A program made the translations under genes and the position numbers. The notes under the pieces were generated by a model that did no database searches, was not told the origin of the DNA, and worked only from the letters and a program-made list of their open reading frames with translations. A stretch of 64,000 bases of DNA, from the NCBI GenBank assembly GCA_963835065.1, contig CAWIEK010000050.1, positions 65,842 to 129,841 of the forward strand. Reading direction: 5' to 3'. Source of the stretch: an uncultured Chthonomonadaceae bacterium (GTDB lineage: Bacteria; Armatimonadota; Chthonomonadetes; Chthonomonadales; Chthonomonadaceae). Below, piece by piece: positions 1,753 to 56,967 of this stretch (position 1 is the stretch's first letter; the number at the start of each line of letters is the position of its first letter).

Positions 1753-4191
1753 TCAGGCCGCTTGTGGAAGGTCGCTTGGCTCTTCTTGGCTTGCTTTCCG
1801 AGGGCTGCCGGTGTCTTCGGAAGCGGCTATTGTCCATTGCGGCTGTTGTAGGAGGGCATCGAACGCAAGTCCGGGGATTGGTTTGGCGAAGAGATACCCC
1901 TGCCCGAAATCACAGCCCAGGGCCTGCAATTGCGCAAGTTGCTCGGAACTTTCGATGCCCTCGCCCGTGACGTTGAGGTTCATGGCGCGGCACAGCGTAA
2001 TGATGGCTTCCACAATGGCACAGGGCTGCGCGCCCCGGCCCATGACACTTACAAAGGCGCGATCAATTTTTACATTGTCAACGGGCAGCCGCTGCAAATA
2101 CGACAGCGACGAGTACCCCGTGCCGAAATCATCTACGGAAAGTAGGACGCCTAACGCTTTGAGCGCGTTCAGGCGGACAATGGCGGCGTCTATATCTTCC
2201 ATCATCACGCTTTCGGTGATTTCGAGTTTCAAACTGGACGGGGGCAGGCCGGATTCGCGCAGCGTTTCCGCCACGACGCGGCATAAATCCTCGTTTTGCA
2301 GCTGCCGCCCCGAAATGTTGACGCTTATCATAAAGGCTTGGCTTGCGGGATGGTGTTCCTGCCATATTTTCGCCTGTTGACAGGCTTGTGAGAGCACCCA
2401 CGCGCCGAGGGGAACAATCAACCCGGTTTCTTCCGCAATGGGAATGAATTTGGCGGGCGACACAAGCCCGCGCGTGGGATGCTGCCAGCGGGCGAGAGCT
2501 TCGGCTCCGTTGATGACGCCGTTATCCAGGTCTATGATGGGCTGGTAGTAGACGCGAAACTCTTCGTTTTCCAGCGCGTGACGGAGGTCGGCTTCTATCT
2601 CCACGCGCTCGACAACGCGCTCATTCATGGCGCTGTCAAAAACGGCGTAACTGCCCTTGCCGTTGAGTTTGGCCTGGTACATGGCCGTGTCCGCGTCGCG
2701 CAGAACGGTTTCCGTCCACGCGCATTCCCAATGGCTGACGGCGATGCCGATGCTGCCGGTAATGAAAACCTCGCGGGACGCAAGCGGAATAGGAACGCGC
2801 AGACGCTCCAGAATAGCCTCGGCAATGGGCGTTACTTCTTCCGCGCCGGTAACATTTTCCAGCAGAATCGTGAACTCGTCCCCGCCCATGCGCGCAACCG
2901 TGTCTCCCGAACGCGCGCACTCCTGCAAACATTGGGCGACACTGACCAGCAGTTCGTCGCCGGCTTCATGGCCGAGGCTGTCATTGATAAACTTGAAATT
3001 GTCCAGGTCTATGAACATGATGGCGACGGAACTCTGCAACTGTCGGGCGCGGGCGAGGGCTTGTTCGAGGCGGTCGTTGAACAGGGCGCGATTGGGCAGG
3101 CCGCAAAGTCCGTCGTAGTACGCCTGATGGGTGATTTGCTCTTCCAGTTGCTTGCGCTCGGAAATGTCTTTCATGAAGCAGTAGTTGCCCTCATACGCGC
3201 CCGCCGCATCATAAATCGGGTACAAGACAACGTGTTTGTGAAAGACAAAGCCGTCTTCGCGCAGCCCCTGGGCTTCGACTTCGATCTTGCCCTGCCGCCG
3301 CATCTCGCGGAAGGCTTGTTCCATCTTGGACACATCGCCGTACCAGACGCTGCGCTTCCAGTTCATGCCGATGAGGGCTTCCGGCGCGCAGCCGAGCATT
3401 TCGGCATAAGCCGCGTTGACAGAAAGATAACATCCCTGCGCATCTAACTGCGCAATGCCGTCCACAACATTTTCCAGAATGGAATTTGTCGCGCGCAGGG
3501 AAGCCGTTCGCGCTTCCACAAGGCTTTCCAGATCAAGCTTCTGCCGCTCCATACGCGCGTCCCGTTCGCAAACGTCCGCCATTTCTTTGTGGCTCGACAG
3601 GCAGGAGAGGACGAGAAAAATGTCTTCAAAGACAACCCAACCCGCGTGTTCCAGCCAGCGCCAGTGTTCGGGCGCGGCGATGCCGTAAATGGACTGCGGC
3701 CACCACAGGCCGCGCAAAATATGATCCAGGGCGGTGACAACCGTTCCCGTCAGGATCACGCGCCAATCGCGGTAAAAAGCGAGAAACGCCAGCGAGCCGA
3801 AAACGTGAAAGTGAGTTTCGATGCGCCCGCCGCACAGATGAATGAGCAGCGCGGACATCAGCAGTTGTCCCACCGCGACAACGTGGCGAGTCAGCGCCGC
3901 GCCGGAATGAAACAAGCACAGGCATACCGGCGGCAGGGTAATAAGACCGCCCAGGAGAATGGCAGCCCAGACATGAAGATGGGTTTGGCTGGTGGTTCCG
4001 CTCCACGTCCGCGGCGACAGCCAGAAAGCGGCGCAAATGCCGGCAAGCCATTGAAATAGCATCAAGCCGGCAAACACGCGGTCAATACGGCGGTAGAGTT
4101 GAAGTTCGTGTTTCTGGAGCAGCGTCGCGGCGTGCCGGATAACATCGGGGAACGGTTCGCTCCCGGCAAACGCATGGGTTGTCATCAGCAA
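1753..4191 (-). CDS. Membrane-anchored PAS-GGDEF-EAL signalling protein (diguanylate cyclase/phosphodiesterase)
   Basis: 812-aa intact ORF with N-terminal multi-TM region and a PAS-like segment. Motifs RMGGDEFTIL (GGDEF), EALARW and DDFGTGYSSLSYL (EAL). Confidence 0.9.
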   Translation of the reverse strand: MLMTTHAFAGSEPFPDVIRHAATLLQKHELQLYRRIDRVFAGLMLFQWLAGICAAFWLSPRTWSGTTSQTHLHVWAAILLGGLITLPPVCLCLFHSGAALTRHVVAVGQLLMSALLIHLCGGRIETHFHVFGSLAFLAFYRDWRVILTGTVVTALDHILRGLWWPQSIYGIAAPEHWRWLEHAGWVVFEDIFLVLSCLSSHKEMADVCERDARMERQKLDLESLVEARTASLRATNSILENVVDGIAQLDAQGCYLSVNAAYAEMLGCAPEALIGMNWKRSVWYGDVSKMEQAFREMRRQGKIEVEAQGLREDGFVFHKHVVLYPIYDAAGAYEGNYCFMKDISERKQLEEQITHQAYYDGLCGLPNRALFNDRLEQALARARQLQSSVAIMFIDLDNFKFINDSLGHEAGDELLVSVAQCLQECARSGDTVARMGGDEFTILLENVTGAEEVTPIAEAILERLRVPIPLASREVFITGSIGIAVSHWECAWTETVLRDADTAMYQAKLNGKGSYAVFDSAMNERVVERVEIEADLRHALENEEFRVYYQPIIDLDNGVINGAEALARWQHPTRGLVSPAKFIPIAEETGLIVPLGAWVLSQACQQAKIWQEHHPASQAFMISVNISGRQLQNEDLCRVVAETLRESGLPPSSLKLEITESVMMEDIDAAIVRLNALKALGVLLSVDDFGTGYSSLSYLQRLPVDNVKIDRAFVSVMGRGAQPCAIVEAIITLCRAMNLNVTGEGIESSEQLAQLQALGCDFGQGYLFAKPIPGLAFDALLQQPQWTIAASEDTGSPRKASQEEPSDLPQAA

Positions 4192-4428
4192 TTTCTCAGA
4201 GAGTTTCTTTGGAGATTAAGCGAACACCGGCAGGAAGGCCGCAGCCAATCAGCAGTGTCACTTCATAATGAATTATCGGCATGAGAAGCGCTTCCCTTCA
4301 TGCCTCCAACAGACTTAAACAAGGAAATATTTATTAAAATCGGAGGAAAGATGCTTGTGTCAAGAAAAAGCCATGAACGCATTGAGGAAAGACGTTCGTG
4401 CTATACTAATTCAGGAGGGAGTGTACCA

Positions 4429-5827
4429 ATGATTACTTCACTGCGAATAGCAAACTTCAAAGCATGGAAAGATACCGGCGAGTTTCGCCTTGCCCCGATT
4501 ACGGGCTTTTTCGGCACGAACAGTTCCGGCAAAACCAGTATTCTGCAGTTTCTTCTCATGCTAAAGCAAACTGTTGAGTCTCCTGACAGACAGGAAGTTC
4601 TTAACTTTGGAAACTATCAGGAACCGCTTGTTTCGTTAGGAAGCTTTAAAAATGTGGTCTTTCGGACAGCCAACGGTGATACAGCGCAACCTACTATTAC
4701 CGAGCAGCCACTCAAACGCGAATTGCTTGACATCGAATGGAGTTTGTCGTGGGAATTGGGCGGTACACAGGTACTGGATGAAAATACAGAAATTGATGCG
4801 CTTCGTTTTGGGGCTTCTGTTGGCGAGTTGAGGCAGAGTATCGGTATGGAAGTAGGCGCGAAAAAATTTGAGTACCAATACTGCAACCTTGAAATCCGGC
4901 AGCAGCGAAAGCGTAGGTATGCAATACATGGATGATTCCAAGTACCAGTTGATTGTCAATGATCAGCCCATCAGGGATAATCAGGCTAATAATACAAGAT
5001 TTCGTCGGCCCGTGAAATGCTATGGTTTCCCGCCGCAAGTCGCTGCTGACAACCAACAAATTTCATACCTTGATACTCTGGAACTGTACTTTACGCTATT
5101 GTTTAACGATATGTATTATCTGGGGCCATTGCGGGATGCGCCTCAGCGCGAGTACCGGCGGACGGGTACAACCGTTTCAGACGTAGGCAAGCGCGGGGAA
5201 AGAACAATAGACGCTTTGCTGGCTTCAGAAGGAACCGGCTCACAACATCGAACCGCGCGAACACTGGAAGGGCAAGTTGCTTACTGGCTGCGCCAACTGG
5301 GGCTGATTGAAGATTTTCGGGTAAAGCCAATCTCCCAATCAAGCGGCTTGTATGGTGTTGAAGTACGTAAGACAGCAGACTCTCCGTATGTCTTTCTCCC
5401 GGATGTAGGCTTCGGCGTCTCGCAGGTGCTGCCTGTAATCGCTTTGTGCTACTATGCGCCGATGGGTTCTATCCTCCTTCTCGAACAACCCGAACTGCAT
5501 TTGCATCCCGCCGTGCAATCGGGCCTTGCAGACATGTTGATTGCAGCCGCGAAAGAACGGCATCTGCAAATCATTCTGGAGAGTCACAGCGAACATTTGC
5601 TGGCGCGACTGCAGCGCCGCGTCGCTGAAGAAGCCATCCCGCGTGACGACGTACAACTCTACTTTTGTAAACGCGAGGCGGCTGCGGCACATTTGGAGCC
5701 ATTACAGATGAACAACTTCGGCTTCATTACGAACTGGCCTAAAAACTTTTTTGGCGATGAATTGGAGGAAAGGTCGGCAATGATGCTTGCCGCTCTTGCT
5801 CGCCGCGAAAAAGGAGAGGCCGAGTGA
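4429..5827 (+). CDS. ABC/OLD/RecF-like AAA ATPase (AAA_15/21-type, DUF3696-like C-terminus), interrupted by a +1 frame change between 4856 and 4935
   Basis: AGGAGG lies 10 nt before ATG 4429. Walker A FFGTNSSGKTS, YLGPLR motif, Walker B/D-loop ILLLEQPELHLHP, H-loop ILESHSEHLL. The N- and C-terminal halves lie in track ORFs 4300..4935 and 4868..5827. Confidence 0.75.
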
Positions 5828-6333
5828 CAGGAACCGGAGTTGTTACAGATACCAACGTGCTTCTTACGGCCAACGGAAACAACGAGAAGGCTGCTCTGAG
5901 TTGCGTTCGAATTTGTGTCCTGACACTTCTACAAATACAATCCGGCAGCATGGGGTTTGTAGTAGTTGACAATGGATTTCGTATTGTCAGTGAGTACAAC
6001 AACAAACTGACTCCCTATACCGGGCAATTGCCCGGTGACGTGTTTCTAACATGGTTGTTGACCAACTTGTACGACCCTACTGTTTGTGAGAGGGTAGAGA
6101 TAGTACAGAATCATCAGAGCAATGATCCCAATGACTTCATAGAGTTTCCTGCCGATCCCGCGCTGGCAAAATTTGACGCTTCCGATAGAAAATTCATTGC
6201 CGTTGCGCTCACCAGTCAATACAAACCGGATATTTTGAACGCAACCGATAGCGACTGGCGTAATTTTCTTGAAGCGTTGCAGGCAAATGGCATAACCGTA
6301 AGATTTCTATGCCCGGAAAGCATGCCAACGTAA
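5824..6333 (+). CDS. PIN-like domain protein (putative nuclease), translationally coupled to the ATPase
   Basis: GTG start overlaps the ATPase stop (GTGA). Acidic PIN-like signature: VVTDTNVLL, FDASDRKFIAVAL, LNATDSDW. Confidence 0.6.
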   Translation: MTGTGVVTDTNVLLTANGNNEKAALSCVRICVLTLLQIQSGSMGFVVVDNGFRIVSEYNNKLTPYTGQLPGDVFLTWLLTNLYDPTVCERVEIVQNHQSNDPNDFIEFPADPALAKFDASDRKFIAVALTSQYKPDILNATDSDWRNFLEALQANGITVRFLCPESMPT

Positions 6334-6358
6334 GAATCAGTCACAATCGGAATAATGT

Positions 6359-7458
6359 TTACTTCGCTCGGAGGGCTTCGCGGGCATAGTCGGCAAGTTC
6401 ATGGGCGCGGTGGGCGGCGGTGTGATGGGCGAGTACGCGCTGGCGGGCGCGTTCCGCAATCGCAGCGCGTTCGGGTTCGGGCAGATTGCGGAGGAAGCGC
6501 AGGGTCTCTTCGGGGGAGCGCGAAACGAGTATTTCCAGGTTGGGAACGAAAAACGTGTCCAGCCCTTCCCAATAGTCGCTGAGGATGGGAACGCCGCAGG
6601 CGGCAGCCTCGAAAAGACGGACGCTTGGCGAGTACCCGGCGCGTATCATGTCGGCGCGGGTGATGTTGAGCGTAAACCGCTGCGAAGTGTAGAATGCCCG
6701 ATGTTCGGCAGGCGGCAGGTGTTCAATGCGCGCGACATTCGCCGGCCAGGCAATGGAAGCGGGATATTGCGGCCCGGCAACCACGAAACGGCCTTCCGAC
6801 CATGCGCGCGCCGGTTCAAGGAGCAATTTTTCGAGCGGCGGCTGACGGTCATCGCTGTACGTTCCCATGTAGCCCAAATCATAATCATAAGCGCTGCGGT
6901 TCGCGTCCGGGAAGTACAAATCGGGGTCAACCGAGCAATACAACGGGCGGGCGGCAGGAGAACCGTACTGCTGTTCCAATCGCGTCAGTGTTGGCCCGCC
7001 CGAAAACGACAGATAGACATTGTAGCGGGGAATCAGTTGCGGGCGTAAGGTACTCGTAATCGCCCCGTTCCAATTTGGACAGCGTAACGGGCGTATCAAT
7101 GTCGTAAAAAGCCGTCGCTGTATGCGCCGTTTGCGTGACCCATTCGCCCACCAAAACGCCTTCGGGCACATACGAGCCGACAATGACAAAATCCGCGTCT
7201 GCGGACGGCGTCGGTAAAGCGGTCGCGCAGTTCTTCGAGGGAGCCATACAGTTCCGTACGTCCGAACGGAGGCGCGGGCATATCGCGATTGGAAGCGTAC
7301 CAGGGCACATCCCGCTCCAAAAACAACACGTCATGCCCCTGCGCGCACAGTTCGCGCGCAAGCCCGCGATACGTGGTCGCGTGTCCATTCCCCCACGAAC
7401 TGGTAATGGACAGGCCAAGAATGACGATATTCAGGCGGTCAGGGGTTGCCAACGTCAT
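6359..7458 (-). pseudogene. CgeB-like glycosyltransferase (DUF3880 / Glyco_trans_1_2 type), two frame changes
   Basis: The sensible peptide runs through three frames: 7458-~7200 (MTLATPDRLNIVILGLSITSSWGNGHATTYRGL), ~7200-7040 (ADADFVIVGSYVPEG...) and 7040-6359 (...VRLFEAAACGVPILSDYWEGL...). It is a paralog of the next gene. Confidence 0.7.
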
Positions 7459-49837: not shown

Positions 49838-50095
49838 CTACTCCTCGCCCTCGGCTTCCGCCGGCTTTTCGGTCGGCAGCAGTCCCAGGCTGGTTGCGCG
49901 GCGGAACGCCTGAACGCGGTTGGAGACTTGCAGTTTTTCGTAGATATTCGCCAGGTGAAAATCCACAGTGCGCTTGCTCACATACAGCAAATCCGCCACT
50001 TCCTTGCTCGACTTGCCTTCGATTACCAGGGTCAGCACTTCTATTTCACGCTTGGTTAGTTTTACGGGTTCGTTCTCGGGTTTGGGCACATTCAT
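49838..50095 (-). CDS. LuxR/GerE-type HTH protein (stand-alone DNA-binding domain)
   Basis: LTKREIEVLTLVIEGKSSKEVADLLYVSKRTVDFHLANIYEKLQVSNRVQA. Confidence 0.8.
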   Translation of the reverse strand: MNVPKPENEPVKLTKREIEVLTLVIEGKSSKEVADLLYVSKRTVDFHLANIYEKLQVSNRVQAFRRATSLGLLPTEKPAEAEGEE

Positions 50096-50294
50096 TCAAT
50101 TATCCTTGCCTGCTTATGGTTTATTTCTGAATAGATGCAGCGTTAGGTATGATTGCCGATTCCTATAGTATGTTCACCGGCAACTTCATATTTCCACACT
50201 GCCCGGCCTTCTTGCTATGTTTTGTGCGAGAATTCGCGCCAAAAACGTAGAATCTAGTATATGTACTGGAAAATACAGGCAAATTACCCGCAAC

Positions 50295-50325
50295 AAAAAA
50301 GCCTCTCTCCTACAAGGAGAGGGGC
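50295..50325 (-). terminator. Minus-strand Rho-independent terminator, apparently orphaned from the DUF4230-like gene by the cassette insertion
   Basis: Stem gcctctctcc / ggagaggggc (one mismatch) preceded on the plus strand by AAAAAA (T6 on the minus strand). About 18 nt downstream (minus sense) of the duplicated EFYF-stop remnant. Confidence 0.55.
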
Positions 50326-50369
50326 TTGGGCGAGGACACGAAAATTAGAAGTAGAACTCTCGGCAAATG

Positions 50370-50430
50370 GTTGTTAAATTTTTACAACAGCCTTGACATA
50401 TCTTCCAACATGTTGTAAAATATATACAAC
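50370..50430 (+). promoter_or_regulatory. Consensus-like promoter (TTGACA 50393-50398, 17-nt spacer, TAAAAT 50416-50421) flanked/overlapped by two GTTGT-N9-ACAAC palindromes
   Basis: Palindromes at 50370-50388 (gttgttaaatttttacaac) and 50412-50430 (gttgtaaaatatatacaac); the second covers the -10 element. Confidence 0.55.
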
Positions 50431-50538
50431 ACCATCCGCGCAAGATGGCGTCATTGCAGGAAGCCCACGACGGCTTCCATTCTTCAAACTAAAGACTTGA
50501 AAAGGAGCCTGCGTTAGACCCCAACGAGGAGACAACTA

Positions 50539-50916
50539 TTGACCACACCAACCACCTTTGGGGAGTACATCAAGGAGCTGCGTCTCGAACAGCGTGTCTC
50601 GCTGCGCGCGTTTGCCGAGTCTATCGGCTCCGATCCCGGCAATTACAGCAAAATTGAACGGGGAAAGATGGCTCCTCCTGCCGATGCTGCGAAGCTGGAC
50701 ATCTATCGCAAAGCGTTGTGCCTTGATGCCAATGATTTGCGGTGGCGTGAAGCGGTGCGTCTTGCTTCCATTCATCGCGGCGAAGTGCCGCCTCGCATAC
50801 TTAATGATGAACAGTTGGTAGGCAAACTGCCCGCGCTGTTCCGCACACTGGAAGGAGATGCCGTTGATGAAACCTTGCTCGATGAGCTAATCGCCACTAT
50901 ACGAAGGGAGTATTAG
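50539..50916 (+). CDS. XRE-family helix-turn-helix transcriptional regulator
   Basis: TTG 50539 lies 7 nt after GAGGAG. Peptide FGEYIKELRLEQRVSLRAFAESIGSDPGNYSKIERGK (HTH_3-like). Confidence 0.8.
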   Translation: MTTPTTFGEYIKELRLEQRVSLRAFAESIGSDPGNYSKIERGKMAPPADAAKLDIYRKALCLDANDLRWREAVRLASIHRGEVPPRILNDEQLVGKLPALFRTLEGDAVDETLLDELIATIRREY

Positions 50917-50921
50917 ATTGC

Positions 50922-51515
50922 GTGAACATACCATTTCTTCCAGATGAAATGCTTGAAGAACAGGCTGAAGCCTTTCTTGCCAAGTATCTGCCTCAGAGGG
51001 TTATTCCCATTCCAATTGAGGAGATACTGGAAACGGATTTCCGCGTCGGAGTTGTGCCTATTCCGGGTTTCAGCGACCGTTTCGGCGTTGTTGGTTACCT
51101 CAGTACGGATCAGCAGGATTTGATGATTGATGAAAAAGTCATGACGCGGTATCCTGCCCGGTATCGTTTTACCATCGCGCATGAATTGGCGCACCTGCTT
51201 CTGCACGGCGACTACATACGGGAAAATTGCCCGGCTAACATTGCCGACTGGAAACGCTGGCTGATCGCAAGGGACGCCAAACTGTACACGCGCATGGAAA
51301 CGCAAGCCAATCGCATGGCCGGTATGCTGCTGGTTCCACGCGCTGAATTAGCGGAAGCATGGGAGCGGGCGCAACAGTACGCCGAAGAGCGTGGCATTGA
51401 TACTACCGAGTTGGATCAGTTTGGGGTCGCGCATCTGGCGGAATGGATTGCCCGTGAATTTGAGGTGTCCGGCAAAGTCGTGGAAATCGCGCTTGAACGC
51501 TGCAAACTGGTGTAG
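50922..51515 (+). CDS. ImmA/IrrE family metallopeptidase (DUF955)
   Basis: HEXXH motif in FTIAHELAHLLLHGDY with downstream E..AN..A segment (METQANRMAGMLLVPR), typical of ImmA/IrrE. Confidence 0.85.
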   Translation: MNIPFLPDEMLEEQAEAFLAKYLPQRVIPIPIEEILETDFRVGVVPIPGFSDRFGVVGYLSTDQQDLMIDEKVMTRYPARYRFTIAHELAHLLLHGDYIRENCPANIADWKRWLIARDAKLYTRMETQANRMAGMLLVPRAELAEAWERAQQYAEERGIDTTELDQFGVAHLAEWIAREFEVSGKVVEIALERCKLV

Positions 51516-51747
51516 CTCAAGCAAATGGCAGGCTGAATGTCTGTTTTACATAGTAACTCTGGAAGAAAAGCAAAAAGCGACAGGTTGCAACCCGTCGCTC
51601 CAGCCGCCTTCCAACGTCCTGAATGGGCGTCAGTCTGCAATGACCTCACAACCCATTGTAACATACGACGCCCTATACCGCAAGAACGAAATAGCGTTTA
51701 ACATGAGTATACTCTGGCCTATGTGATTATTTGGGGAGGATGCTGAT

Positions 51748-52257
51748 ATGTCCGATCAACTTACAATTCCCTCAACGCAAAATAAACTTTCTTCCAATTA
51801 CAAGCATCCCGTTGTAAAAGAACTTGCTCTTCTGCTTACAAACGCAAGTTTGCAAGCAGTTCCTTTAGTCGGTTCGCCTATAGCTGCGCTTATATTTGGC
51901 GGTATCTCTCTTGCTAAAGAACGACGGGCACAGGCCTACTTGGAAGAGTTGGAACAAAATCTGCATGAACTTGGCGAAGATACCATTTCACGTGAGGAGT
52001 TCACACATTTATTTACAATCACAGCCCGTGCAGCCTTAAACACACAACAAGAAGAAAAAATACGACGCTTCGCCCAGTTATTTGCGAGTTTCGCAAATGG
52101 GAGCAATTTTGATCGTATTAGCGAGTATGAAGAGGCCGCACAGATTGTAACTGAATTGTCTGAACGGGAATTTCAAGTTCTCTTGATACTTGATTTGCAC
52201 GAACGTACTGCACCCATTGATGCGCCTCCCGAACTGCGACGAACTTCAAAATCTTAA
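51748..52257 (+). CDS. Hypothetical protein, cassette cargo 1
   Basis: Strong RBS GGGGAGGA 8 nt upstream. Hydrophobic segment AVPLVGSPIAALIFGGISLA followed by helical/coiled region; no family recognised. Confidence 0.55.
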   Translation: MSDQLTIPSTQNKLSSNYKHPVVKELALLLTNASLQAVPLVGSPIAALIFGGISLAKERRAQAYLEELEQNLHELGEDTISREEFTHLFTITARAALNTQQEEKIRRFAQLFASFANGSNFDRISEYEEAAQIVTELSEREFQVLLILDLHERTAPIDAPPELRRTSKS

Positions 52258-52261
52258 TGGC

Positions 52262-52648
52262 ATGTTCTGGGTACCCTTTCTTGATATGGTAGAGCAGGAG
52301 ACGGGTATACCACTTTCTGAAATTCCGGGCGTACTTGAGCGGTTACGCCGTAGCGGGCTATACCAAACTTGGCCGAATAGTCAGGGCGGAGGATTTCTTC
52401 ACAAGGGCATTGTCATTGATCATGATTTAGGACATCTAACGGCTAATTTTGACGTTTTGATGCATCTACTCCAGCACGAAACTACAAACCTGAAAGATAA
52501 CCCAATAAATGGTACATCTCACCTAACAGAACCTGCACAGCGTGTGGATGACGTCTACTTTCGTATCTCTTCTAACTACACAGAAGAGGAGGCAGAAAGA
52601 ATTTTACAAAGCATTGACGATAATACAGGATATATCTTTGTTGGATAG
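52262..52648 (+). CDS. Hypothetical protein, cassette cargo 2 (possibly fused to cargo 1)
   Basis: ATG lies 5 nt after the upstream TAA, no RBS. GIPLSEIPGVLERLRRSGLYQ is reminiscent of a winged-helix. The same frame is open back to 52190. Confidence 0.45.
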   Translation: MFWVPFLDMVEQETGIPLSEIPGVLERLRRSGLYQTWPNSQGGGFLHKGIVIDHDLGHLTANFDVLMHLLQHETTNLKDNPINGTSHLTEPAQRVDDVYFRISSNYTEEEAERILQSIDDNTGYIFVG

Positions 52649-52802
52649 ATAAAGAGGTCTCCTGATATGCACATGGGCAGCCCACGTGATCCATACAGAT
52701 ACACAGTAAATACTACACTCGCGCACTCTGCACAAACTATCGCAGATCGTTTGAGCAAGTTTCCAGAAATTGATGTAGTATCCTTCAATAAAAACATTTG
52801 TA

Positions 52803-53441
52803 CTAAAAGTAGAACTCTACGTCGCGGCCCAACGTCTGCTGCATCTGGCGCAGGGTTTGCGCGGCATTGGCCTGCGCCTGCTGACAGATGCCGCTTTTCT
52901 CTGCCGCTTCCCGAAACTGCTGCGAGGCTTTTTCCTGCGCTTTGGGCACGATGTTGTCGTCGTGCCACACCAGACCCGGATCGCTCTGCTCCACGCGCAC
53001 CCGGACGTTCGGCGGATAAATCGTAACGGGCGGCAAATGGACGCGCCAGACGGTTTTGCCGTCCACGTTCTTGGTCGCGGTCACATCTTTGGCGGACAGG
53101 GTTGACAGGTCTACGCCCGCTTCCACCGTGCCTTCGGCCACGACAAGCGCCTGATTGCGGGTCGCCCAATGCACCACGTTCGACACGCCCGGCATGTTCC
53201 CGATCATGCCTTCCGGTTCCACCTGCGTTTCCTGCCGCACGATGTCTTTCATCTTGAACGACGCGGAATGAAGCTGTCCGATTTTCTGCATGGCGAGAAC
53301 AACCGGCCCCATTTCGGGCGGCAGGTCACGCCGATGCGCCTGCCCGATGTTCCACAGCCAGGTTCCCGCCAGCCACACGCCCACAAACGCGCCGATGATG
53401 CGCCACGCCCATCTGCGCGGCCTGCCTGTCGTTCTTGCCAT
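52803..53441 (-). CDS. Membrane-anchored hypothetical protein (DUF4230-like)
   Basis: N-terminal anchor WAWRIIGAFVGVWLAGTWLW. Overall pattern (..EAGVDLS..) resembles DUF4230; family call is tentative. Confidence 0.55.
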   Translation of the reverse strand: MARTTGRPRRWAWRIIGAFVGVWLAGTWLWNIGQAHRRDLPPEMGPVVLAMQKIGQLHSASFKMKDIVRQETQVEPEGMIGNMPGVSNVVHWATRNQALVVAEGTVEAGVDLSTLSAKDVTATKNVDGKTVWRVHLPPVTIYPPNVRVRVEQSDPGLVWHDDNIVPKAQEKASQQFREAAEKSGICQQAQANAAQTLRQMQQTLGRDVEFYF

Positions 53442-53464
53442 GTCAAAAAACCTCTTTTCAGAAT

Positions 53465-53720
53465 GTCGGTGTTAGGTATTCGGTATTCGGTGTTCGGGCA
53501 CTTGTCAGTGTCAGCCGGTTCCGCGCCGAAAATTGGTTCGGAAGCGATCACAAGTCGTTGTGAGCGGTATGTCTGTACCAGACAGAGATACCTGATTTAT
53601 TCTTATTGTATCTTATATAGGACGACTTCGCAGAGAGTTTCATTCTTTTCTTTTGCGCTTCGCGGCTATACCTCCCTGTAACCATCGAACCATCAAAATC
53701 CCGAACACCGAATACCGACA
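53465..53720. repeat. Heptamer inverted pair (GGTGTTA/GGTATTC-type 53465-53498; CGAACAC/CGAATAC-type 53700-53720) with ~200-nt spacer
   Basis: The arms are partial reverse complements; located between two minus-strand genes. Confidence 0.7.
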
Positions 53721-56004: not shown

Positions 56005-56967
56005 TCAGAAAGAGGAGGTAACCGCAAGATTAAACCTAACTTGCTTTGCCTGCCGATGCTGCCGAATAGCGGTCAGCAGATGATAAGGCGCGGGGCTGCC
56101 TTCGGGAGCGTTGAGGTCGGGACGTTCCACTGCGCCAAGCCTTACTTTGGGCTTGACGGACGGGCCGTGAAAATCCGACCCGCCCGAAGTGAGCAGGCCA
56201 TGCCGCGCGGCCAGATCAAGGTAACGCGCCGTGTCTTCTGAGGAGTGCAGGTTGTAACGCGCTTCGATGCCGTCCAAGCCCATGTCGCGCAACTGCAAAA
56301 TGTAGGCTTCCGTGGCTTCGCAGGAGCCGCGCTTGCAGTTGTTGGGATGTGCGAGAATCGCCACTCCGCCCGCCGCGTGGATGAGATATATGGCCTCTTT
56401 CGCCGTGACTTTTTCTTTCGGAACGTTGCCCTTCGCGCTTTCCGCCAGATACACGTCAAACGCTTCCTGCACACTGCCGACCAGCCCTTTTTAAATCAGC
56501 ACACGGGCAAAATGCGGACGCGCAATGATATCGCCGCCCGCAATGGCTTCTACTTCTTCCAGCGTAATGTGAATGTTCCGGCTTTTCAGTTCGTCAAGGC
56601 TGTTCAGTTTGTCCACCATGCGAGCGTTGCGATTGACTCGATTTTCCTGAATGTCATGCAGGCGGGAAAGCAAAACGGGATTGTTTGGATCAATGCCCAA
56701 TCCTAAAATATGGCACTGCCCCCGCTTTTCGCCCGGAACCGCCTCGATTTCCGCGCTCAACTCGATTCCCGCAATCACTTCCACGCCCAAGCGCCGCCCC
56801 GCTTCCAGGGCTTCGGCAACGCCGTCCGTTGTATCGTGATCCGTAACGGCAATCGCCGTCAATCCCGCTTCTTTGGCAAGCGCGACAAGCTGCGTCGGGG
56901 ATTGGTCGCCATCTGAAGCGGTCGTATGGGCGTGAAGATCAACACAGCGCAATTCGGGTTCCGGCAT
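56005..56967 (-). pseudogene. PHP-domain phosphoesterase (TrpH/YciV-like) interrupted by an in-frame TAA
   Basis: DLHAHTTASDG...VTDHDT (ORF 56491..56967) and ILAHP...GGSDFHG (ORF 56005..56472) are in the same frame, separated only by TAA at 56491-56493 (..FARVLI*KGLVGSVQEAF..). Confidence 0.8.

What the first reader, a model, noticed from the sequence alone, without database searches (positions are those of the whole stretch)
50295..52818. 2.4-kb XRE/ImmA cassette inserted between a gene and its own terminator, bounded by 15-nt direct repeats that duplicate the gene's last codons
The DUF4230-like gene (minus strand) ends ..RDVEFYF-TAG, encoded by 52803-52823. An almost identical 15-mer occurs 2.46 kb away: 50346-50360 tagaagtagaactct versus 52804-52818 taaaagtagaactct, 14/15 identical with 12 contiguous matches. 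In minus sense the distal copy reads GAG TTC TAC TTC TAA, that is EFYF-stop. About 18 nt beyond it lies a good minus-strand intrinsic terminator (hairpin 50301-50325 plus T6) with no gene feeding it. The simplest reading is that the ancestral gene end and terminator were at ~50295-50360, and that the AT-richer block carrying XRE, ImmA/IrrE and two unknown ORFs integrated at the gene's 3' end with target duplication. No integrase or transposase is inside. The element is therefore either a decayed integrative element or a cassette mobilised in trans.
Basis: seen in the sequence. Interest (0 to 1): 0.8.

Follow-up and report, generated by a model that had tools for sequence, protein, structure and literature searches.

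The report
Regulator-plus-Abi islet inserted behind a gene
A 2.46-kb piece of foreign DNA carrying a repressor/protease switch and a broken phage-defence-like gene really did insert between a host gene and its terminator, as related strains with the empty site show; it is a small decayed genomic islet of a familiar kind, not a new type of element.

Summary
Two related strains carry the empty site: DUF4230 gene, stop codon, terminator(s), LuxR gene. One is L002, collinear with the window over 17 kb. The other is L003, 99% identical in the gene. Their homology with the window stops at 52807. The distal 15-mer plus the orphan terminator aligns base for base with the empty-site gene end.

The insert has three parts:
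- An XRE repressor and ImmA/M78 protease pair (CapH/CapP- or ImmR/ImmA-like), behind a promoter bracketed by two GTTGT-N9-ACAAC operators.
- A conserved ~170-nt spacer holding a strong minus-strand terminator.
- One gene, not two, of an Abi-alpha-like family. It carries a frameshift, an in-frame stop and a missing 3' end.

The same regulator module sits behind the DUF4230 gene of another Chthonomonadaceae species (L001) with a different cargo. Its dS there is about 0.2, against about 0.7 for DUF4230. It is also found in a noisy contig (L005).

The remnant-plus-terminator segment is only 77% identical to the empty sites, while the next 195 nt are 99% identical. The whole block was therefore probably imported by homologous recombination from a more distant relative, in which the original integration took place. 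No recombinase was found. The integration mechanism remains inferred.

The parts
50295..50327 (-). Orphaned intrinsic terminator of the DUF4230 gene: hairpin 50299-50327 plus T6 at 50295-50300.
   Evidence: Terminator scan. Fold dG -18 kcal/mol, z -3.1. Aligns with the first of two tandem terminators in the empty sites L002 and L003.
50345..50360 (-). Distal repeat copy. This is the remnant of the ancestral gene end (GAG TTC TAC TTC TAA, reading EFYF-stop).
   Evidence: Aligns with the real gene end of the empty sites and is followed by the homologous spacer.
50370..50430 (+). Promoter of the XRE gene. The -35 TTGACA is at 50393-50398 and the -10 TAAAAT at 50416-50421. Two palindromic operators GTTGT-N9-ACAAC sit at 50370-50388 and 50412-50430.
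   Evidence: Best promoter match in the region, 11/12. The two perfect operator matches are adjacent, and seven matches with up to one mismatch occur in the window against 1.5 expected. Operators and hexamers are conserved in L001 while the rest of the region is 73% identical.
50539..50916 (+). XRE-family helix-turn-helix repressor, 125 aa.
   Evidence: Pfam HTH_3 E 5e-7. PADLOC capH E 1.6e-5. 97.6% aa identity to the L001 copy.
50922..51515 (+). ImmA/IrrE-type M78 zinc metalloprotease, 197 aa, with an HELAH motif.
   Evidence: Pfam Peptidase_M78 E 6e-15. PADLOC capP E 1.4e-14. Best PDB sequence hit is CapP 7t5t, E 0.0024. H87, E88 and H91 are invariant in the family alignment.
51516..51690 (.). 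Conserved post-ImmA spacer. It is 91% identical to L001, and beyond it the cargo differs. It holds a strong minus-strand intrinsic terminator at 51574-51601.
   Evidence: Terminator scan. Fold on the minus strand gives -22.6 kcal/mol, z -4.1, against -13.1 on the plus strand.
51748..52803 (+). A single disrupted cargo gene of an Abi-alpha-like family. It has a helical N-terminal domain and a probable winged-helix part. It carries three lesions: a frameshift at the A-run 52248-52251, an in-frame TAG at 52646-52648, and no in-frame stop before the junction.
   Evidence: ORF3 aligns to residues 45-174 of P0081, ORF4 to 174-298, and the next in-frame piece to 321-352. The family has 404 representatives. 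14 of 60 members hit Pfam Abi_alpha, best E 8.5e-8.
52803..52818 (-). Proximal repeat copy. These are the present last codons and stop of the DUF4230 gene (GAG TTC TAC TTT TAG).
   Evidence: Homology with L002, L003 and L004 ends at 52807.
52803..53441 (-). Host DUF4230 gene, the target. Its 3' end is the insertion site.
   Evidence: Pfam PF14014 E 3e-22. Orthologues with PHP - S9 peptidase - DUF4230 synteny are present in L002 and L009.

Best explanation
Window 50361-52802 is a horizontally acquired, partly decayed genomic islet. It sits exactly between the stop codon of a host DUF4230 gene and that gene's terminator.

What it encodes. The islet carries a stress- or phage-responsive switch. 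An XRE repressor probably shuts its own promoter through two GTTGT-N9-ACAAC operators. An ImmA/M78 protease probably cleaves the repressor on a signal, as CapP does to CapH and ImmA does to ImmR. Downstream and co-directional lies a cargo gene of an Abi-alpha-like family. That cargo gene is now a pseudogene here.

How it got there. The 15-16-nt direct repeats are the two products of one integration event at the conserved ...EFYF-stop end of the gene. Most likely this was a Campbell-type, site-specific insertion of a circular element whose attachment site mimics the gene end. The gene therefore stays intact, and the old end plus terminator is pushed 2.46 kb away. The recombinase is not in the islet. 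It was either lost or acts in trans.

How it reached this lineage. The block appears not to have integrated in this lineage itself. It came in together with both repeat copies and the old terminator, by homologous recombination from a more diverged relative. The crossovers lie near 50295 and inside the last ~40-400 nt of the DUF4230 gene.

Shown: the insertion, the empty site, the foreign composition, the horizontal spread of the regulator module, and the gene content.
Inferred: the repressor/protease logic, site-specific integration, and import by homologous recombination.
For: - Empty sites: L002 and L003 have the gene end followed directly by the terminator(s) and the LuxR gene. The distal repeat, spacer and hairpin align to them.
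- Foreign composition: GC 51.7% and 42.9% against 57.5%; cargo GC3 0.33.
- Same module at the same gene end in another species, with other cargo. L001 is an uncultured Chthonomonadaceae MAG. Module dS is 0.17-0.20 against DUF4230 dS 0.70. That means transfer after the species split.
- A third variant, L005, has the same left junction with L001-type cargo beside a window-like DUF4230.
- Import by recombination: 50295-50360 is 77% identical to both empty sites. Those two sites are 96% alike there, and 50100-50294 is 99% identical to L002. Five of the eight DUF4230 coding differences from L003 lie in the last 36 nt.
- Regulator identity: HTH_3 and M78; best PADLOC hits capH and capP; best PDB hit CapP.
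- Family context: in 80 metagenomic relatives of the protease, an XRE was detected in 66. It lies directly upstream on the same strand in every locus where its position was examined. The genes downstream are often defence genes: SMODS, Shedu SduA, DNA methylases, type ISP.
- Published mechanism: CapH is cleaved by CapP when ssDNA is present (bioRxiv 10.1101/2022.04.27.489752).
- Cargo family and decay.
Against: - No recombinase, no circular junction and no second copy at another site was found. Site-specific integration is therefore inferred only from the geometry.
- L001 has no duplicated gene end, even allowing three mismatches in 15.
- The two islands share no end sequences outside the regulator module, so no defined element termini can be drawn.
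- The cargo reading frame runs into the junction without a stop. This suggests the proximal boundary was reshaped by a later deletion and is not a clean attachment site.
- The protease is shorter than CapP (197 aa against 242-291), and only the peptidase part aligns. The gene order is co-directional, not divergent as in most CapH/CapP systems.
- The cargo's link to Abi-alpha is weak. The window protein itself has no Pfam hit, and the fold search found nothing.
- The assemblies carry indel errors, so the frameshift may not be real.
Confidence: 0.6

Rival explanations
1. The repeats are a true target-site duplication. A transposase-type enzyme made cuts staggered by 15-16 nt, and the islet is a non-autonomous transposon. 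Casposons, for example, give 14-15-bp duplications at gene 3' ends.
For: Both differences between the repeat copies are silent in the gene copy, as expected if two identical copies drifted. A 6-nt inverted repeat, CAAATG at 50364-50369 and CATTTG at 52795-52800, lies 3 nt inside each repeat and can be extended to 9 of 11 (read).
Against: The inverted repeat is short and is not conserved in L001, where homology starts at 50370. No transposase or Cas1 was found. There is no second copy in the window. The same gene end is occupied in two species, which fits site-specific targeting better. A 15-16-nt duplication is outside the usual range for IS and Tn elements (established knowledge).
Confidence: 0.1
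2. The islet is ancestral in this family, and the empty sites (L002, L003) arose by precise deletion between the direct repeats.
For: The module is present in two species whose DUF4230 genes differ by dS 0.7. Empty (L003) and occupied (L005) alleles co-occur in one sample, ERZ25039523.
Against: Four relatives spread across the divergence range lack it: L003, L002, L004 and L009. The module's dS (~0.2) is far below the host's (0.7), and its composition is foreign. The empty sites carry two terminators and a gene-end flank that are 96% alike between L002 and L003 but 77% alike to the window remnant. That does not fit a recent excision from a window-like allele. This rival would still need an earlier event to create the duplicated gene end.
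Confidence: 0.08
3. The islet entered by illegitimate or microhomology-mediated recombination, and the 15-mer identity is partly a coincidence. No dedicated recombinase was ever involved.
For: No recombinase was found. The islands lack shared termini. The cargo gene is cut at the junction. Short repeats of 11-15 nt are common in the region.
Against: A 14/15 match, in frame and ending at a stop codon on both copies, is far longer than the usual 3-10-nt microhomology. The distal copy is demonstrably the old gene end. The inserted DNA therefore had to carry its own copy of the gene end. That is expected for an attachment site and not for random DNA.
Confidence: 0.12

Closest known systems
CapH/CapP regulators of CBASS and other defence operons (Lau et al., bioRxiv 10.1101/2022.04.27.489752)
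   Same: An XRE-type HTH repressor is paired with an M78/IrrE-like zinc protease. The best PADLOC and PDB matches are capH, capP and CapP. Relatives of this protease sit next to SMODS cyclases, Shedu and R-M genes.
   Different: The genes here are co-directional with the cargo. Most CapH/CapP pairs are divergent from theirs. The protease is 197 aa and only its peptidase part aligns, so the C-terminal GAF-type domain of CapP seems absent. No signal response was tested.
ImmR/ImmA of Bacillus subtilis ICEBs1 (immR-immA-int operon at the element's end; own knowledge, Bose et al. 2008)
   Same: The order repressor, then protease, then a third gene is the same, all on one strand. The module sits at the very end of an integrated element beside the att-like repeat. 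The protease is small and lacks a GAF domain.
   Different: The third gene here is a variable cargo (Abi-like, or an unknown 407-aa protein in L001), not an integrase. No conjugation or excision genes are present.
CIMEs: cis-mobilizable elements, i.e. decayed integrative elements that keep attL and attR but have lost integration and transfer genes (PMC5704250)
   Same: A small integrated block at the 3' end of a gene, bounded by direct repeats that include the gene end. It has no recombinase of its own and its gene content is decayed.
   Different: No ICE or IME with the same site specificity is known here, and no excision has been shown. The repeats are short (15-16 nt). The host is an Armatimonadota lineage (Chthonomonadaceae), not a Firmicute.
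Abi-alpha abortive-infection protein of Enterococcus faecalis prophage 6 (Pfam PF14337; PMC6356687)
   Same: The family of the cargo gene gives weak to moderate Abi_alpha hits in 14 of 60 members. Proteins are of similar size (220-380 aa) and are all-helical. The genes occur in accessory, defence-rich contexts (L008).
   Different: The window protein itself does not reach any Pfam threshold. The family has a C-terminal winged-helix-like part. The copy here is disrupted. No phenotype is known.

Membership tests
CapH/CapP regulatory pair | An XRE-type HTH repressor gene adjacent to an M78 (HExxH) metalloprotease gene | tested here: met
   HTH_3 E 5e-7 and Peptidase_M78 E 6e-15. The genes are 5 nt apart. 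PADLOC capH E 1.6e-5 and capP E 1.4e-14.
CapH/CapP regulatory pair | Protease with a C-terminal GAF-like regulatory domain, as in the CapP structure 7t5t (291 aa) | tested here: not met
   The protein is 197 aa. Only positions 4-124 of the 242-position capP profile align, and only residues 84-145 of 7t5t.
CapH/CapP regulatory pair | Encoded upstream of, and on the opposite strand to, the regulated defence operon, sharing its promoter region | tested here: not met
   XRE, ImmA and cargo are all on the plus strand. The divergent layout is stated for 'the vast majority' of systems. In relatives of this protease the cargo is co-directional in about three quarters of loci.
CapH/CapP regulatory pair | ssDNA- or DNA-damage-stimulated cleavage of the repressor, leading to derepression | not testable with these tools
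   Needs biochemistry or a reporter assay.
Integrative element or CIME bounded by attL/attR | Direct repeats at both ends, one of which is the 3' end of the target gene | tested here: met
   Repeats at 50345-50360 and 52803-52818.
Integrative element or CIME bounded by attL/attR | An empty site (attB) in relatives that equals one repeat copy flanked by the outer sequences | tested here: met
   L002 and L003.
Integrative element or CIME bounded by attL/attR | A cognate tyrosine or serine recombinase, in the element or elsewhere, and excision to a circle | tested here: inconclusive
   None was found in the islet or in the flanks collinear with L002. None turned up among the ten atypical window ORFs scanned, nor by tblastn with three recombinases. 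The rest of the genome and the reads are not available.
Abi-alpha (PF14337) | A match to the Pfam model above its gathering score (29 bits) | tested here: not met
   The window pieces give no Pfam hit. The listed relatives score 18-22.5 bits, below the 29-bit cut-off. 14 of 60 relatives hit at E up to 0.01, best E 8.5e-8.
Integron gene cassette | An attC recombination site at the cassette end and an IntI integrase or attI nearby | tested here: not met
   The window repeats are 15-16 nt of coding sequence, not an attC-like imperfect palindrome. No integrase was found.

The most novel reading that the evidence does not exclude
The XRE-ImmA module, with its conserved ~170-nt tail and built-in reverse terminator, could be the fixed 'head' of a family of recombinase-less cassettes. 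These cassettes would be mobilised in trans and target the conserved ...EFYF-stop end of DUF4230 genes in Chthonomonadaceae. They would exchange their cargo at the end of the conserved tail. Three cargo states are seen at one site: window, L001 and L005. That would make a small platform for swapping defence genes, comparable in logic to integron cassettes or CIMEs but with an unknown recombinase.
Probability: 0.12. Interest if true: 0.6.

Novelty: new member of a known kind. Interest (0 to 1): 0.35.

Why it matters
This is a clean, base-resolved example of how a small defence-type islet is placed behind a conserved gene without damaging it. It also shows how such an islet then spreads among relatives, carrying the scar of its original integration with it. 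The example comes from a poorly studied phylum (Armatimonadota, Chthonomonadaceae).

It also documents a co-directional ImmR/ImmA-like variant of the CapH/CapP switch, attached to changing cargo. That may help annotate unknown cargo genes as candidate defence genes, such as the 407-aa protein of L001 and the Abi-alpha-like family of about 400 clusters.

It does not reveal a new mechanism.

Tried and rejected
- A metagenome scan with the DUF4230 protein found no relative.
- An exact look-up of the window's DUF4230 and ORF3 proteins found no record.
- The ImmA protein has no relative in viral contigs or in GenBank phages. In plasmids only 29%-identical Agrobacterium hits appeared.
- Rfam on 50000-53600 gave only a sub-threshold chance hit on the terminator. 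The conserved spacer is not a known RNA family.
- The cargo proteins of the window and L001 have no hits in Pfam, PADLOC or PHROGs, and none above cut-off in NCBIfam.
- The AlphaFold model of the cargo N-terminal domain is confident (pLDDT 86.5, all-helical). It matched nothing in PDB or BFVD at E below 0.3.
- I searched L001 for a duplicated gene end and found none with up to three mismatches. A 9-nt match (GTTTTGTTC) between the L001 distal junction and the sequence just after the stop codon of the empty sites was noted. It is too short to rely on.
- A terminal inverted repeat (CAAATG/CATTTG) was considered and judged probably chance.
- A dif/Xer-like reading of GTTGTTAAAT... was considered and rejected. 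The motif occurs twice around the promoter hexamers, as operators do.
- Homology-facilitated illegitimate recombination as the origin of the duplication was considered. It was rejected because it would replace the gene end, not duplicate it.
- L005 is an indel-rich contig and may be a mixed consensus around positions 1813-2170. Only its clean parts were used.


Full report
**1. The observation**

Their common 12-mer occurs nowhere else in the 64-kb window, with 0.04 expected. The proximal copy is the true end of a minus-strand DUF4230 gene at 52803-53441 (PF14014, E 3e-22), reading ...RDVEFYF-TAG. The distal copy reads EFYF-TAA in the same sense. About 20 nt further on lies a minus-strand intrinsic terminator: hairpin 50299-50327 plus T6, -18 kcal/mol, z -3.1. 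No credible minus-strand gene feeds it. The region holds 23 families of short repeats. The repeat alone would therefore not be convincing, and the decisive evidence is comparative.

**2. Empty sites**

The exact protein is not on record, but close relatives are.

- L002 is a 145-kb contig. It is collinear with window 59610-42324 at 92-96% identity, except that window 50321-52806 is missing. Its gene order is PHP, S9 peptidase, DUF4230, two tandem terminators, GerE/LuxR, Ada-Zn, AI-2E transporter, PspA.
- L003 is 99% identical in DUF4230 and has the same empty layout.
- L004 and L009 are more distant and also lack the block.

Homology of L002, L003 and L004 with the window ends at 52807, inside the last Phe codon. 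In gene sense the window's distal segment reads GAGTTCTACTTCTAA-TTTTCGTGTCCTCGCCCAAGCCCCTCTCC.... It aligns column by column with the empty-site GAGTTTTACTTCTGA-GTTTTGTTCACCTCACCCCAGCCCCTTTCC... and its first terminator. The ancestral gene end and terminator are thus at 50295-50360, and 2.46 kb has been inserted between them and the present gene end.

**3. What was inserted**

All genes are on the plus strand.

(a) A strong promoter, TTGACA-17-TAAAAT, 11/12. It is bracketed by two perfect palindromic sites, GTTGT-N9-ACAAC, at 50370-50388 and 50412-50430. One lies just upstream of the -35 and the other spans the -10. This is the usual layout for an autorepressor.

(b) An XRE HTH protein of 125 aa and, 5 nt later, an ImmA/IrrE M78 protease of 197 aa with an HELAH motif. 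The best PADLOC models are capH and capP. The best solved relative is CapP 7t5t.

(c) A spacer at 51516-51690. It contains a strong intrinsic terminator oriented for the minus strand: 51574-51601, -22.6 kcal/mol, z -4.1, against only -13.1 on the plus strand.

(d) The cargo. ORF3 aligns to residues 45-174 of the 360-aa protein P0081. ORF4 aligns to 174-298. The stretch after ORF4's TAG, in the same frame, aligns to 321-352.

The cargo gene therefore has three lesions:
- a frameshift at the A-run 52248-52251;
- an in-frame stop at 52646-52648;
- no stop of its own before the junction with DUF4230.

The family has 404 representative clusters, mostly of 220-250 aa. 14 of 60 members give Pfam Abi_alpha hits, best E 8.5e-8. 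Abi-alpha is an abortive-infection protein of an Enterococcus prophage (PMC6356687). The N-terminal domain models confidently as a helical bundle (pLDDT 86.5) but has no structural match. A 73%-identical homologue lies elsewhere in a related metagenome. It has no XRE/ImmA, is interrupted by an IS630 element, and sits among TIR/pentapeptide genes. The window assembly has at least one other split gene: PHP at 56005-56967, which is intact in L002. The frameshift may therefore be an assembly error. The in-frame stop and the missing end are less easily explained that way.

**4. The regulator module is mobile and its cargo changes**

L001 is an uncultured Chthonomonadaceae MAG whose DUF4230 is 76% identical in protein. 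It has the same XRE, ImmA and spacer directly behind its DUF4230 gene and in the same orientation. Between the spacer and the gene it carries a different cargo, an unknown 407-aa protein.

| Comparison | Nucleotide identity / dS |
|---|---|
| Module, window vs L001 | 94-95% in the two genes and 91% in the spacer (90% over the whole BLAST match); dS 0.17-0.20 |
| DUF4230, window vs L001 | dS 0.70 |
| DUF4230, window vs L002 | dS 0.40 |
| DUF4230, window vs L003 | dS 0.03 |

(All.) So the module moved between lineages long after they split.

Homology between the two islands covers window 50370-51684 only. The outer ends differ, and L001 has no second copy of the gene end.

L005 is a noisy contig from the same sample as the empty L003. 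It has the window's left junction, including the distal repeat, a 95%-identical module and the start of the Abi-like gene. It then continues with an L001-type cargo (85% identity) and an L001-type junction, next to a DUF4230 that is 97.5% window-like. If it is real, three states of this site coexist in closely related populations: empty, Abi-like cargo and 407-aa cargo.

**5. How the block reached this genome**

The remnant-plus-terminator segment 50295-50360 is only 77% identical to both empty sites. Those two sites are 96% identical to each other there. The next 195 nt of the window are 99% identical to L002. On the other side, five of the eight coding differences between the window and L003 lie in the last 36 nt of DUF4230.

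A freshly made junction should carry native flanking DNA, and this one does not. The simplest reading is that the whole block, roughly 50295-52840, was imported by homologous recombination. The block includes both repeat copies and the displaced terminator. The donor would be a more diverged relative with the same gene order, and the original integration took place in that relative. This also removes the need for any recombinase in the present genome.

**6. The original integration**

A duplicated gene end with the gene kept intact is the signature of Campbell-type integration of a circle whose attachment site mimics the target's 3' end. This is seen in many integrative elements. Decayed derivatives that keep attL and attR but have no integrase are called CIMEs (PMC5704250). 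Occupation of the same gene end in two species fits site specificity.

Against a clean att model:
- no recombinase was found in or near the block;
- the islands share no common termini;
- the cargo frame runs into the junction, which suggests later deletion.

A transposase-type 15-16-nt target duplication is a weaker alternative. Plain illegitimate recombination explains the in-frame 14/15 match poorly. None of these can be settled without reads or complete genomes.

**7. Likely function**

This rests on analogy with CapH/CapP, with ImmR/ImmA and with DdrO/IrrE. The repressor holds the promoter shut. The protease cleaves it on DNA damage or infection. Transcription then rises through XRE, ImmA and the cargo. 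No convincing separate cargo promoter was seen, so an operon is the working assumption.

Among 80 metagenomic relatives of the protease (31-56% identity), an XRE was detected in 66. It lies directly upstream on the same strand in every locus where its position was examined. The next genes are co-directional in about three quarters of loci. They include SMODS cyclases, Shedu SduA, DNA methylases and a type ISP enzyme.

The internal reverse terminator would stop DUF4230 transcripts, which have lost their own terminator, before they run antisense into the regulator genes. This last point is an inference.

**8. Comparison and verdict**

The pair works like CapH/CapP but fails two of that family's features: the divergent layout and the GAF-bearing protease. 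In layout it is closer to ImmR-ImmA-Int of ICEBs1, with a variable cargo in place of the integrase. As an inserted block it resembles a CIME. Nothing here demands a new category.

The finding is real, well supported and tidy. Its interest lies in the resolved history and in the cargo-swapping module. It is a new member of known kinds, of modest interest (0.35).

Noticed in passing
L003 1-2296 (upstream of its DUF4230 gene); compare window 53618 onward: The strain with the empty 3' site carries a different, AT-richer block of about 2.3 kb on the other side of the DUF4230 gene. It holds a cNMP-binding/Crp-like gene at 514-1314 and small ORFs, and has no match in the window. Both flanks of this gene appear to be insertion hot spots. 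L001 also has low-GC DNA on both sides (L001 5200-8000 and 8640-11700).
   Followed up: partly
window 4123-6370: A low-GC3 two-gene block. One gene is an AAA_21/AAA_15 ATPase with DUF3696 (4868-5827) and the other is an overlapping 169-aa ORF (5824-6333). The block is absent from the otherwise collinear L001, where L001 133-335 replaces it. It looks like a second small defence-type islet.
   Followed up: partly
window 51574-51601 (minus strand): A strong intrinsic terminator points against the cassette's own genes. It is conserved in L001 and L005. It may now terminate the DUF4230 transcript 1.2 kb past its stop codon and shield XRE/ImmA from antisense read-through.
   Followed up: partly
L031 3640-3818, 4782-4899, 5542-5715, 7210-7341; L060 105-139, 735-836, 2028-2127, 3588-3628; L025 292-435 and 1834-1978; L089 1-127 and 1657-1783: In 4 of 32 metagenomic loci with distant relatives of this XRE-ImmA pair, the pair is flanked by direct repeats of roughly 35-150 nt. 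In two loci the repeat occurs four times in series between different genes. This is a cassette-array-like pattern of unknown nature; the repeats are not obviously attC.
   Followed up: partly
window 56005-56967; L002 5600-7647: The PHP-domain gene is split into two ORFs in the window but is intact (312 aa) in L002. The S9 peptidase is split into three in L002 but is intact in the window. These assemblies carry indel errors, or pseudogenes, so single frameshifts should not be over-read.
   Followed up: no
L008 3294-5850: A 73%-identical homologue of the cargo gene is interrupted by an IS630-family element with inverted repeats at 3833-3866 and 5238-5271. It lies in a region rich in TIR/pentapeptide-repeat genes and has no XRE/ImmA nearby.
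   Followed up: partly
L002 8660-8722 and L003 3120-3185, compared with window 50295-50327: The empty sites have two tandem terminator hairpins after the DUF4230 gene, and the window has one. The window's hairpin differs from the first empty-site hairpin by paired substitutions that keep the stem.
   Followed up: partly
L006 4104-12784: A 51%-identical XRE-ImmA pair lies in a phage-like contig, between an integrase/repressor region and tail genes (SPP1_Dit). That is the accessory 'moron' position of a temperate phage.
   Followed up: no
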